The position numbers and the translations under genes were made by a program. Of a stretch of DNA of 64,000 nucleotides, positions 55,655 through 64,000 are shown one piece after another. This DNA comes from a virus. The notes below the pieces were generated by a model. The model worked only from the letters and a program-made list of their open reading frames with translations. It searched no databases and was not told the DNA's origin. Where the stretch lies: positions 32,001 to 96,000 of the IMG/VR virus record IMGVR_UViG_3300021959_000011; one strand, written 5' to 3'. Positions within the stretch are counted from its first letter, which is position 1; each line of letters begins with the position of its first letter.

Positions 55655-55978
55655 AGTACGACTACTTCTGTTGCCAAGTGAGCCGCCAACTCCGTTAGAA
55701 TCAAGCTGCGATAGCCATCTCTACAGGTGCAAAATTATCGTTTGCATTTATTATTGTTGACCGAATAACGTAGGTCATCACGGCAATCTACTCTCATCTC
55801 TACACACCTGTCGATCCTAGTTCGCCCCCATCATAAATGCACTAACTTCGACCGCCACTTACGGGCCATCTATGTTCTGCAAAACTTCCTGTTGCAGCAG
55901 GACATAGTGCATTTATGGTGGAGGCGTTGGGTACTGCCCCCAAGTCCAGTATGTATGTTGAATCGTATCAACGACTAC
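55655..55978 (-). ncRNA. ssrA: Permuted two-piece tmRNA; tag ANDNFAPVEMAIAA* at 55745-55701
   Basis: Acceptor piece ...CGCCTCCACCA (ends 55916) precedes GGGGGCGAACTAGGATCGAC (starts 55829); G3-U70 pair; promoter TTGACA-17-TATAAA at 55986-56014; outer ends approximate. Confidence 0.93.
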
Positions 55979-56047
55979 AAATATATTTATACACTATACT
56001 CTGTAAAATGTCAATACATTTCTATATGAAATATAGTGTGTTGTATT

Positions 56048-59031: not shown

Positions 59032-60156
59032 TTATTTTGTTTCAAATACTCCATTATATTGATTATTAACTAACACAAAAGTTGTACATTTCGAAAGTTG
59101 TTTAAGACTCCCTGCACCCACGTAAGTACAAGTACTTCTAATGCCCCCTAGAATATCTTGGATTGTCTTTGCCACCTCTCCACGATATGGTACTAAGACT
59201 TCTCTACCTTCAGACGAACGATATTCTTTAAGTCCACCAAAGTGTTTATCATTTGCAGCCTTACTGCTCATACCATAGAACTGCACAAACTGTTTTTCTT
59301 CTATTGCCGAAACGTGATCTCCATTATCATGTATATCAACTTCATCTGATTTGTAATATTTCTTTATTACTTCACCACCACCTTCATCGTGTCCGGCAAG
59401 CATACCACCCAACATTACAAAGTCAGCACCACCAGCGAATGCCTTCGCTACATCACCAGAGCATGTACACCCACCATCAGCAATGATATGCCCACCAAGA
59501 CCATGGGCAGCATCAGCGCATTCAATAACTGCCGAGAGTTGGGGATAACCGACTCCAGTTTTGATACGAGTAGTACAAACACTGCCAGGCCCAATACCCA
59601 CTTTAACAATATCGGCTCCATTTAAAATTAACTCCTGTGTTTGATCTGCAGTAACAACATTCCCTGCAATGATTACAATATTAGGATACAACATTCTAAA
59701 CTGTTTTATAAAGTCTACAAACCGTTCTGTATATCCATTTGCAACATCAATACAAACATATTTTAGATTATATCCAACTTGTTCGTAGACCATGCGAAAC
59801 TTATCATGATCCGCATCAGAAATACCAATAGACATTGCAACATATTCTCTGCGCTCAAGATATTCTTCTGTATCGAAATAATCCACTAGTTGATTTACTG
59901 TGTAGGTTTTGACTAAACAGGTCATAATCTGACCTGTTGCAAGCATATCAGCCATTTCAAATGTACCGACACCATCCATATTTGCAGCAATGATAGGTAC
60001 ACCAGAAAAATCTGAATCACATATATCATCGAAATTATAGTTTACAAATTGGTATTCTCTATTCAGAGATACGCACTTGCGACTTGACAGTGTAGAACGT
60101 TTCGGACGAATTAATACGTCACTATAATCTAATTTGGTTTCCTGTTCGATTCTCAT
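59032..60156 (-). CDS. guaC: GMP reductase
   Basis: [59 protein letters not shown]. Confidence 0.96.
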
Positions 60157-62951: not shown

Positions 62952-63132
62952 TATCTCTACCTAACCCCTTGACTCTCACAATTGTTCGCGGAAGAATTTC
63001 ACAATTCTCTCCGCGATTTTCTATAGCGATAGTTTCATAACAATCTTCGTAGGAAGGCAACCCTTCATGGATACACTCTCCATGAAGGTAAATATCAAAA
63101 ACTACAGAATTTTTTTGAATTATTTTTTGCAA
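62935..63132 (-). CDS. Hypothetical protein
   Basis: Ends VKGLGRDSDLH; overlaps neighbours. Confidence 0.55.
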   Translation of the reverse strand: MQKIIQKNSVVFDIYLHGECIHEGLPSYEDCYETIAIENRGENCEILPRTIVRVKGLGRDSDLHN

Positions 63133-63365
63133 TCACACCCACCAGATGAACACTCACACTTTCTCATAAAAAAATGTATGACTGCCATGGAGAACCACAT
63201 CCAAGTCATTTCTCCAATACCAAAAATATCTGCGCTATGTGGATGATGTATATTCTCCATATGGCCATGTGACATATCACAATAAAGGAAATATGATCCT
63301 AGAGCGCCCAAGATGAGAGCCGCTTGTGCATTTGTAATTCGGAAATTTTTCATTCGTTTTAACAT
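63120..63365 (-). CDS. Small His/Met/Cys-rich membrane protein
   Basis: TM, HGHMENIHHPH, GEMTWMWFSMAVIH, CECSSGGCDC tail. Confidence 0.6.
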   Translation of the reverse strand: MLKRMKNFRITNAQAALILGALGSYFLYCDMSHGHMENIHHPHSADIFGIGEMTWMWFSMAVIHFFMRKCECSSGGCDCKK

Positions 63366-63559
63366 TCGATATCCTTTCTAGATATTTCGATATTATTTAG
63401 GTTTCGGATATATTTTCTGGCAAAAAAAAAATTTTTCGAAAGTGTTTCTGAGGCGATTGAAGAACTTCTAGGGCCACTCTATAGACCGACCTAACCGAAA
63501 ATATGGAACCAACTTAATAAAGTCTTCACCAGTTTTGGGGGAGGGGGTCTTGAAGGATC

Positions 63560-63773
63560 AAAAAAAGGTCACAGTGGAATGAATGAGCAAACCAGAGCGA
63601 CCTTTTAGATACGAAGGTAAAGGAGAAAATCCTTCGTTGTTATATGGGAGGCCCTATACCTGTCGCTGGTTAATGCAGGCATTTACTCCTCGACTATGAT
63701 CGACCTCCAACCATAATCCAGCCAATTTTTATTATAAGGTGATAGAGATAAATTGGCGAAACTCTCTATCATA
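63560..63773 (-). ncRNA. Candidate structured RNA array downstream of tRNA-Arg, ending in a terminator
   Basis: No ORF; five hairpins, two or three loop-pairing pseudoknots, final stem plus U7. Confidence 0.5.
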
Positions 63774-63776
63774 TCT

Positions 63777-63853
63777 TGGCGACCTCTATAGGACTCGAAC
63801 CTATAACCTACGGCTTAGAAGGCCGTTGCTCTATCCAGTTGAGCTAAGAGGCC
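63777..63853 (-). tRNA. trnR: tRNA-Arg(TCT)
   Basis: ACGGC-CTTCTAA-GCCGT anticodon arm, GGTTCGAGTCC T arm, encoded CCA. Confidence 0.95.
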
Positions 63854-63858
63854 TTATC

Positions 63859-64000
63859 TTATACTTGTTGATAAGGTTTGTTCCAATCCCCAACTGAGAT
63901 ATCCATGTAATATGCAGTGTCGAAATAATCAATCATGGCATCAGAGTTATCATACCAACCACGACCCACACCTTTTACCAAAGGCGCAGTTTTCACAATC
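63859..64000 (-). CDS. 3' end of a conserved phage protein (truncated)
   Basis: ...GWYDNSDAMIDYFDTAYYMDISVGDWNKPYQQV*. Confidence 0.65.
   Translation of the reverse strand, partial: IVKTAPLVKGVGRGWYDNSDAMIDYFDTAYYMDISVGDWNKPYQQV

What the first reader, a model, noticed from the sequence alone, without database searches (positions are those of the whole stretch)
63560..63773. Dense pseudoknotted RNA plus anti-SD hairpins downstream of tRNA-Arg
Seen on the minus strand: (i) 9-bp stem TGATAGAGA/TCTCTATCA whose loop GCCAATTT is complementary to downstream AAATTGGC; (ii) 11-bp stem GATTATGGTTG/CGATCATAGTC whose apex GGAGGTC can pair with GGCCTCC; (iii) TGCCTG/CAGGTA hairpin whose loop CCAGC matches upstream GCTGG; (iv) ACGAAGG/CCTTCGT hairpin exposing TCTCCTT, an anti-Shine-Dalgarno sequence; (v) long-loop stem plus U7. 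No ORF. Inference: one or more undescribed ncRNAs processed from the tRNA trailer, either a ribozyme-like fold or sRNAs that block host ribosome-binding sites.
Basis: partly seen in the sequence, partly recalled or inferred. Interest (0 to 1): 0.7.

Follow-up and report, generated by a model that had tools for sequence, protein, structure and literature searches.

The report
New double-pseudoknot RNA after phage tRNA-Arg
Directly after the tRNA-Arg gene of an abundant uncultured marine T4-like phage lies a gene for a folded non-coding RNA with two pseudoknots; compensating mutations in related phages keep the fold, it matches no catalogued RNA family, and its job is unknown.

Summary
On the minus strand, window 63776-63560 starts right after the CCA of tRNA-Arg(UCU) and carries three hairpins and two loop-to-downstream pairings.

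I found the same element behind the same gene and tRNA in metagenome contigs of related phages: 11 distinct sequences in about 5 lineages. On these, 42 proposed pairs are 97.6% paired. 19 pairs show changes on both sides, against 1-4 in shifted controls. Both pseudoknots are 100% paired and covary.

Invariant G-U pairs fix the RNA strand as the tRNA's strand. Rfam 15 has no match and no reading frame is conserved.

The "anti-SD" hairpin exists only in the closest relatives. A pyrimidine-rich tract and an intrinsic terminator follow the fold in every lineage.

A conserved consensus sigma-70 promoter upstream makes one early unit: LPD29 gene, tRNA, RNA, terminator.

The closest known analogue is T4. 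There tRNA-Arg(UCU) is followed 1 nt later by the stable RNAs rnaD and rnaC, but my model finds no homology to them.

Function is unknown. Ribozyme and anti-SD ideas are untested.

This scan has reported other, apparently unrelated pseudoknotted RNAs in phage tRNA arrays on other DNA. It reported this sequence only in this genome.

The parts
63777..63853 (-). tRNA-Arg (anticodon UCU) with encoded CCA; the RNA element starts at the next base
   Evidence: ARAGORN; Rfam tRNA 70 bits
63772..63776 (-). Short unpaired 5' leader. A conserved 4-nt motif follows CCA after 0-3 variable nt.
   Evidence: Alignments A1, A2 and A5; upstream context
63740..63771 (-). Hairpin P1 (63771-63763 with 63748-63740). 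Its loop carries the 5' strand of pseudoknot PK1 (63757-63750).
   Evidence: 8 of 9 pairs changed on both sides across lineages
63721..63728 (-). 3' strand of pseudoknot PK1, pairing with the P1 loop
   Evidence: 8 pairs, 100% paired, 4 with compensatory changes and three different complementary versions. The pseudoknot was not part of the search model.
63692..63718 (-). Hairpin P2 (63718-63709 with 63701-63692). Its whole 7-nt loop (63708-63702) is the 5' strand of pseudoknot PK2.
   Evidence: 10 pairs, 100% paired, 4 compensatory and 3 one-sided, with invariant G-U pairs
63683..63691 (-). Invariant purine-rich joining strand J2/3. It resembles a Shine-Dalgarno sequence and runs into an AUG that opens P3.
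   Evidence: Invariant in all 11 distinct sequences
63656..63682 (-). Hairpin P3 (63682-63675 with 63664 and 63662-63656). The stem is nearly invariant and the loop varies in length.
   Evidence: 8 pairs, 7 never vary, 1 compensatory plus G-U variants
63647..63653 (-). 3' strand of pseudoknot PK2, pairing with the P2 loop
   Evidence: 7 pairs, 100% paired, 2 compensatory in three versions
63611..63637 (-). Hairpin displaying a pyrimidine-rich (CU) tract in its loop (63630-63618). Distant lineages lack the hairpin but keep the tract.
63560..63606 (-). Intrinsic terminator: stem, long loop, U7. It marks the 3' end of the RNA.
   Evidence: Fold. A terminator stands at the same place in all relatives.
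63417..63554 (-). Context only: 'element B', a conserved, single-copy, unstructured non-coding block after the terminator. It is probably a DNA-level control region.
63394..63400 (-). Context only: a late-promoter-like heptamer in front of the next gene (81-aa ORF 63365-63120)
   Evidence: the same motif before the differing downstream genes of relatives

Best explanation
Window 63776-63560 (minus strand) is a gene for a non-coding RNA of about 215 nt from a family that has not been catalogued.

Shown:
- It sits at the end of a small early operon conserved among relatives: a consensus sigma-70 promoter (just beyond the window's end), the 126-aa LPD29 gene, tRNA-Arg(UCU) (plus a tRNA-Asp in one lineage), the RNA, then an intrinsic terminator.
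- Its 5' 135 nt fold into two consecutive H-type pseudoknots. The first is P1 with PK1. The second is P2 with PK2, and hairpin P3 is inserted in its long loop.
- The fold presents an invariant purine-rich joining strand.

Inferred:
- The RNA is freed from the tRNA by the normal 3'-end cut of tRNA maturation, as T4 rnaD and rnaC and the bacterial 3'ETS RNAs are.
- It accumulates as a stable RNA early in infection.

Mechanism (inferred, about 35% likely): the RNA acts in trans. The exposed pyrimidine tract just before the terminator would pair with purine-rich ribosome-binding sites. The knotted 5' domain would serve as a protective or partner-binding module.
For: Homologues:
- The element was found only behind the same gene and tRNA, in related marine phage contigs.

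Covariation (11 distinct sequences):
- 97.6% of cells are paired.
- 19 of 42 pairs changed on both sides, against 1-4 in slid controls.
- No shuffle of 500 reached the observed covariation score.
- PK1 and PK2 are each 100% paired with 4 and 2 compensatory pairs, although they were not in the search model.

Strand: invariant G-U pairs fit only the minus-strand RNA.

No known family: Rfam gives nothing at gathering score or at E up to 10.

Internal control: the adjacent conserved element B shows no structure in the same genomes.

Operon:
- A 12/12 sigma-70 promoter lies upstream of the LPD29 gene.
- It is conserved in all lineages.
- A terminator is present in all lineages.

Analogue: in T4, tRNA-Arg(UCU) is followed 1 nt later by rnaD and then rnaC.

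RNA libraries: perfect-match contigs cover the element. One 187-nt contig from an rRNA-depleted metatranscriptome spans exactly 63595-63776.

Pyrimidine tract: it is kept in all lineages although the surrounding sequence is not alignable.
Against: - No direct evidence shows a discrete, stable transcript or its ends. Contigs cannot show ends. The contig break at the tRNA border may be an assembly effect of the shared tRNA sequence.
- RNA libraries can carry DNA.
- The pyrimidine tract is the least conserved part, whereas base-pairing RNAs usually conserve their seed. The strongest constraint lies in the knotted domain and its purine strand, which favours the decoy rival.
- Complementarity of a CU tract to ribosome-binding sites is nearly automatic.
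- Only about 5 lineages are known, all from one phage clade.
Confidence: 0.6

Rival explanations
1. The knotted domain itself is the active part. It would be a decoy or sponge that holds out the invariant Shine-Dalgarno-plus-AUG-like strand on a rigid double-pseudoknot scaffold. Its target would be a protein or the 30S subunit: for example a translational repressor, an RNA-cutting enzyme, ribosomal protein S1 or a host defence nuclease. The pyrimidine tract would mask this strand or be incidental.
For: - The joining strand, the P3 stem and the PK2 flanks are invariant, while P1, PK1 and P2 change freely by compensation. That pattern is typical of a sequence-specific binding surface on a structural scaffold.
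- In several lineages the pyrimidine tract holds a 7-9-nt perfect complement to the joining strand (read by eye).
Against: - No partner is known.
- The invariance could equally reflect tertiary contacts inside the fold.
- No binding data exist.
- The distance from the SD-like motif to the AUG is only 3 nt.
Confidence: 0.25
2. It is a self-cleaving ribozyme or a cis-acting processing element. It would define the 3' end of the last tRNA of the array by cutting right after CCA.
For: - The element starts 0-3 nt after CCA in every lineage, behind a conserved 4-nt motif.
- It has a compact double-pseudoknot fold.
- One RNA contig begins at the first base after CCA.
Against: - No match to any ribozyme family in Rfam, even at E up to 10.
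- The topology differs from the HDV-like fold: no P3/L3 and no P1.1 equivalents.
- The spacing to CCA varies.
- Host enzymes process CCA-encoding tRNAs without such help.
- The contig end is explained by assembly branching at the shared tRNA.
Confidence: 0.07
3. It is a cis-regulatory leader, that is a riboswitch or attenuator, controlling read-through of the terminator into the downstream gene.
For: The order resembles a riboswitch: folded domain, then terminator.
Against: - Downstream genes differ between carriers: the 81-aa ORF, an Fe-S biogenesis protein, and unrelated 56- to 89-aa proteins.
- Each downstream gene has its own late-type promoter, and the conserved element B lies in between.
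- I could find no conserved anti-terminator alternative.
Confidence: 0.05
4. It is not an RNA at all. It would be a DNA-level element (a promoter inside P1, an origin), a short protein gene, or chance inverted repeats.
For: - A promoter-like pair of hexamers overlaps the P1 loop in the window.
- A conserved AUG follows an SD-like motif.
Against: - The '-35' hexamer is the PK1 strand and changes together with its distant partner.
- G-U pairs are tolerated on one strand only.
- The short frame is not conserved in length or sequence.
- The fold z-score is -3.5.
Confidence: 0.03

Closest known systems
Phage T4 small stable RNAs rnaD (species 2, 119 nt) and rnaC (species 1, 139 nt)
   Same: - Both lie in a T4-like myophage, immediately 3' of tRNA-Arg with anticodon UCU and encoded CCA, at the end of the tRNA cluster and on the same strand.
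- Both are 120-215 nt long and of unknown function.
   Different: - There is no detectable homology. The covariance model of the new RNA scores at most 7 bits (E 0.27) in the T4 tRNA region, and its only match inside rnaC scores 2.6 bits.
- T4 rnaC ends in a tRNA-like T-arm and acceptor-like stem. The new RNA has two pseudoknots and no tRNA-like part.
Bacterial tRNA 3' external transcribed spacer RNAs (3'ETS of the leuZ operon in E. coli; from my own knowledge, not checked in a paper here)
   Same: Both lie between the last tRNA of an operon and its intrinsic terminator, so release by tRNA 3' processing is expected. Both are trans-acting RNAs made from a 'trailer'.
   Different: The 3'ETS RNA is short and simple and acts as a sponge for other small RNAs. 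The new RNA has a 135-nt double-pseudoknot domain with invariant unpaired bases. Processing and function are untested here.
GOLLD and ROOL RNAs (large ornate RNAs of phages and prophages)
   Same: These are structured RNAs of unknown function with pseudoknots, often located next to tRNA genes and in prophages (PMC5737381).
   Different: - They average about 580 nt (ROOL) or more.
- They are in Rfam and do not match here.
- The new RNA is small and restricted to one clade of marine myophages.
tmRNA pseudoknot string
   Same: Both have consecutive H-type pseudoknots next to a tRNA-type module. The same phage carries a permuted alpha-type tmRNA at 55655-56018.
   Different: The tRNA here is a normal tRNA-Arg. 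There is no tag reading frame and no match to tmRNA models.

Membership tests
T4 rnaC/rnaD-type tRNA-cluster stable RNAs | Encoded directly downstream of the last tRNA (tRNA-Arg UCU) of a T4-like phage tRNA cluster, on the same strand | tested here: met
   Window; T4 annotation and sequence
T4 rnaC/rnaD-type tRNA-cluster stable RNAs | Sequence or structure homology to rnaC or rnaD | tested here: not met
   Model R1 with filters off on the T4 tRNA region: best 7 bits, and 2.6 bits for its only match inside rnaC. The folds differ.
T4 rnaC/rnaD-type tRNA-cluster stable RNAs | Accumulates as a discrete stable RNA processed from the tRNA precursor | tested here: inconclusive
   RNA-library contigs cover it at 100% identity, and one spans 63595-63776. 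Contigs cannot show ends, strand or level.
tRNA 3'ETS-derived small RNA | Lies between the last tRNA of a transcription unit and an intrinsic terminator | tested here: met
   Promoter; terminator
tRNA 3'ETS-derived small RNA | Released by RNase E and acts by base pairing in trans | not testable with these tools
   No host and no raw reads. The duplex scan of the phage genome was not discriminating.
Known self-cleaving ribozymes (HDV-like, twister, pistol, hatchet, hammerhead) | Match to the family covariance model or its conserved core | tested here: not met
   cmscan of 63300-63900 at E up to 10 gave only the tRNA and noise. Relatives were also negative.
Known riboswitch classes | Match to a family model and a consistent regulated downstream gene | tested here: not met
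   No Rfam match. Downstream genes differ and have their own promoters.
tRNA, degraded tRNA or tmRNA piece | Match to tRNA or tmRNA models, or a T-loop motif | tested here: not met
   ARAGORN and Rfam find nothing in 63560-63776

The most novel reading that the evidence does not exclude
The RNA would be a phage counter-measure. A rigid double-pseudoknot scaffold would display a mimic of a ribosome-binding site (or of a tRNA or mRNA cleavage site). It would be made together with the phage tRNA early in infection, to capture 30S subunits or a host RNA-targeting defence nuclease.

It would then be one example of a wider, still unexplained class of pseudoknotted RNAs that phages keep inside their tRNA arrays. 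That class would include T4 rnaC and rnaD, whose function has been open for about 50 years.
Probability: 0.12. Interest if true: 0.85.

Novelty: new variant of a known kind. Interest (0 to 1): 0.55.

Why it matters
Phages from T4 to giant gut phages keep small folded RNAs inside their tRNA clusters, and none has a known function. This one offers several advantages for study:
- The fold is unusually clear, with two covariation-supported pseudoknots and an invariant exposed strand.
- The operon is defined: consensus early promoter, small gene, tRNA, RNA, terminator.
- The host virus is widespread in seawater data. At least 16 public runs from 17 studies hold the stretch, and contigs carrying the neighbouring gene are counted in the hundreds.

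That makes it a compact, tractable model for asking what tRNA-linked phage RNAs do. It also adds a family that is missing from Rfam.

Tried and rejected
- **Exact-pattern scans.** Two scans of IMG/VR for the conserved core gave nothing besides the window's own genome, which is withheld.
- **GTDB genomes scan.** It gave 3 hits, about what chance predicts (my estimate is about 6). The model scores them at 11 bits or less, so they are not homologues.
- **Model R1 on related loci and genomes.** It found nothing on 80 IMG/VR loci with more distant LPD29 genes. It found nothing in the whole genomes of phage Melnitz and three IMG/VR relatives. The own genome holds a single copy. An empty answer there is not proof of absence.
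- **T4 tRNA region.** No homology.
Not conserved.
- **Anti-terminator alternative.** The P2 loop can pair with the terminator's 3' arm in the window, but the pairing is lost in other lineages (by eye).
- **Target search with the CU loop against the phage genome.** The best non-self duplexes, about -16 kcal/mol, fall on ribosome-binding-site-like purine runs such as G000 minus strand near 70101 and 68876. Any CU tract would do this, so the result does not discriminate.
- **Read laying.** Parts of the stretch without RNA-contig cover are not evidence of silence. The oligo-dT libraries cover the coding flanks too and may carry DNA.
- **Element B as an RNA.** No consensus structure.
- **Lookup of P0005.** No contig on record.
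- **Literature.** The search for the T4 species 1 RNA found nothing in the open library.

Full report
**What is there.** The window is part of a 140,926-bp IMG/VR virus record. It is a contractile-tailed phage: it has a tail sheath and a gp5-like baseplate hub with lysozyme. Its G+C content is about 35%. It carries three tRNAs and a permuted alpha-type tmRNA. It shows weak DNA and protein similarity to the Melnitz group and other T4-like phages.

The finding lies on the minus strand, directly after tRNA-Arg(UCU) at 63853-63777. That tRNA ends in an encoded CCA. No minus-strand ORF of 30 aa or more lies between the tRNA and the next gene, the 81-aa ORF at 63365-63120.

**Checking the observation.** The 217 nt fold to -64.4 kcal/mol with a z-score of -3.5, and none of 200 shuffles folds as well. 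Rfam 15 gives nothing here except the tRNA, both at gathering score and at E up to 10 with permissive filters.

**Finding relatives.**
- The upstream gene is a 126-aa LPD29-domain protein. I used it as an anchor.
- IMG/VR loci with LPD29 at 70% identity or less have tRNA arrays or small ORFs at this place, with no similar DNA.
- JGI and ENA metagenome contigs with LPD29 at 77-87% identity do carry the element.
- Exact-protein look-ups added more carriers.
- In all there are 23 occurrences, 11 distinct sequences and about five lineages: the window with L190-198 and L200-205; L082 with L185; L084, L086 and L168; L085, L170 and L171; and L175, L181 and L182.
- In L082 a tRNA-Asp lies between tRNA-Arg and the element. 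The association is therefore with the end of the tRNA array, not with tRNA-Arg as such.

**The fold.** I wrote down five helices:

| Helix | Window coordinates (minus strand) |
|---|---|
| P1 | 63771-63763 with 63748-63740 |
| PK1 | 63757-63750 with 63728-63721 |
| P2 | 63718-63709 with 63701-63692 |
| PK2 | 63708-63702 with 63653-63647 |
| P3 | 63682-63675 with 63664 and 63662-63656 |

On the 11 distinct sequences the counts are as follows (the same picture with 5 and 8 sequences):
- 97.6% of 462 cells are standard pairs, against 32-46% when partners are slid by 1-3 columns.
- 19 of 42 pairs carry changes on both sides, against 1-4 in slid controls.
- The covariation score is 0.43, against 0.05-0.09 in slid controls.
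- No shuffle of 500 reaches the observed values.
- P1 is almost completely rewritten between lineages, with 8 of 9 pairs compensatory.
- PK1 exists in three different, mutually complementary versions.
- PK2 also exists in three versions.

The covariance model contained only the nested helices. The two pseudoknots are therefore tested independently of the alignment method.

Several G-U pairs are invariant, and single G-U variants occur. These would be A-C mismatches on the other strand, which fixes the RNA as minus-strand, the same as the tRNA.

Topologically the RNA is two consecutive H-type pseudoknots separated by 2 nt. The second has P3 inserted in its long loop.

The unpaired purine-rich strand 63691-63683, the P3 stem and the flanks of PK2 are invariant. 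The P3 loop and the long loop of the first pseudoknot vary in sequence and length.

**What is not confirmed.**
- The hairpin at 63637-63611 occurs only in the window's near relatives and in L082/L185.
- All lineages nevertheless keep a run of 8-14 pyrimidines with a similar core motif. It is exposed in a loop or in a single strand just before a terminator of unrelated sequence.
- The short frame starting at the conserved AUG has 7, 8, 25 or about 60 codons in different lineages, so it is not a gene.

**Transcription unit.**
- A perfect sigma-70 consensus (12 of 12) lies about 60 nt upstream of the LPD29 start. This is at locus L001 2242-2214, about 270-300 nt beyond the window's end.
- A near-consensus promoter stands at the same place in every lineage.
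- The unit is therefore: early promoter, LPD29 gene, tRNA(s), the RNA, terminator.
- After the terminator comes a roughly 135-nt conserved block, 'element B' (63554-63417). It is single-copy in the genome. It is also present in relatives that lack the RNA, where it sits upstream of tRNA-Arg. It has no conserved secondary structure.
- Element B serves as an internal negative control for the covariation analysis. It is probably a DNA-level control region.
- Each downstream gene then has its own late-type promoter motif. These genes differ among carriers. This argues against a cis-regulatory role for the RNA.

**Expression.** Sixteen runs hold half or more of the stretch's sampled words, and the holders come from 17 studies. 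Six of the holding runs are RNA libraries.

When laid on the window, an rRNA-depleted metatranscriptome (X17) has one perfect-match 187-nt contig covering exactly 63595-63776. That span runs from the first base after CCA into the terminator. Two oligo-dT libraries cover 63135-63935 in small perfect pieces.

This is only a hint. Contigs show neither ends nor strand, DNA can be present in RNA libraries, and the break at the tRNA border is what a de Bruijn assembler would produce at a sequence shared with other organisms.

**Comparison with known things.**
- In T4 (NC_000866), tRNA-Arg with the same UCU anticodon and encoded CCA is followed after 1 nt by rnaD and then by rnaC. These are the 'species 2' and 'species 1' stable RNAs of unknown function. 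The position is the same, but there is no homology. Model R1 with filters off scores at most 7 bits in that region. rnaC folds with a tRNA-like 3' part that the new RNA lacks.
- The layout also matches bacterial tRNA 3'ETS RNAs (from my own knowledge).
- It matches too the known tendency of GOLLD and ROOL RNAs to lie near tRNAs in prophages (PMC5737381).
- The paper on the related Melnitz phages reports the tmRNA and a glutamine riboswitch. My term search of it found 'small RNA' and 'noncoding' nowhere in the text (PMC9004378), and Melnitz itself lacks the element.
- Notes of this scan list several other pseudoknotted RNAs in phage tRNA arrays on other DNA. All name T4 rnaC and rnaD as the closest known thing. 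By shared words, none is this sequence.

**How it most likely works.**

Shown: the RNA-level fold, the strand, the operon layout and the terminator.

Inferred: release by the tRNA 3'-end cut and accumulation as a stable early RNA.

For the function I see two live readings.
- **Base-pairing RNA (about 35%).** The exposed pyrimidine tract would bind purine-rich ribosome-binding sites. The tract is retained in all lineages and sits where small-RNA seeds often sit. It is, however, the least conserved part, and its complementarity to ribosome-binding sites is close to automatic.
- **Decoy (about 25%).** The knotted domain would be a binding surface for a protein or the 30S subunit. This reading explains why the joining strand, P3 and the PK2 flanks are invariant while the other helices drift by compensation. 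In several lineages the tract contains a 7-9-nt perfect complement of the joining strand, so the two may also pair with each other. With an invariant partner this cannot be tested by covariation.

A ribozyme, a riboswitch and a DNA element are each unlikely, for the reasons given under rivals.

**Verdict.** This is a real, new, small structured RNA family of a widespread marine T4-like phage clade. It is a new variant of the known but unexplained kind 'stable RNAs of phage tRNA clusters'. The structure is well supported and the function is open.

Noticed in passing
window 63417-63554 (minus strand): 'Element B' is a roughly 135-nt conserved, C-rich, single-copy non-coding block ending in an A-run/T-run palindrome. 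It is shared by 12 distinct relatives. Some of these lack the RNA, and there it lies directly upstream of tRNA-Arg. It has no conserved RNA structure, so it is probably a promoter or protein-binding region.
   Followed up: partly
L001 2214-2242 (minus strand; about 270-300 nt beyond the window's end): A perfect 12/12 sigma-70 consensus promoter lies about 60 nt upstream of the LPD29 gene. It is conserved in all lineages, which marks the LPD29-tRNA-RNA unit as an early operon.
   Followed up: yes
L042 5402-5640, L046 5413-5651, L051 4433-4560: More distant relatives carry a different G+C-rich block right after their tRNA-Arg. By eye it has a long covarying closing helix and a terminator-like end, and Rfam has no match. 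It may be a second, unrelated tRNA-trailer RNA. The automatic alignment was poor.
   Followed up: partly
window 55655-56018 (minus strand): A phage-borne circularly permuted alpha-type tmRNA (Rfam 137 bits; tag ANDNFAPVEMAIAA), as described for Melnitz-like and pelagimyophage genomes.
   Followed up: no
window 63120-63365 (minus strand): The next gene encodes an 81-aa protein with a hydrophobic stretch, several His residues and a Cys-rich C-terminus, and has no Pfam match. In close relatives this slot instead holds an Fe-S biogenesis (PF01521) gene or other small genes, so the slot is variable.
   Followed up: partly
L082 3162-3236: One lineage has an extra tRNA-Asp inserted between tRNA-Arg and the RNA. 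This shows turnover of the tRNA array while the trailing RNA is kept.
   Followed up: yes
window 59032-60156 (minus strand): An IMP dehydrogenase / GMP reductase family gene (Pfam E 6e-67) is carried by the phage as an auxiliary metabolic gene.
   Followed up: no
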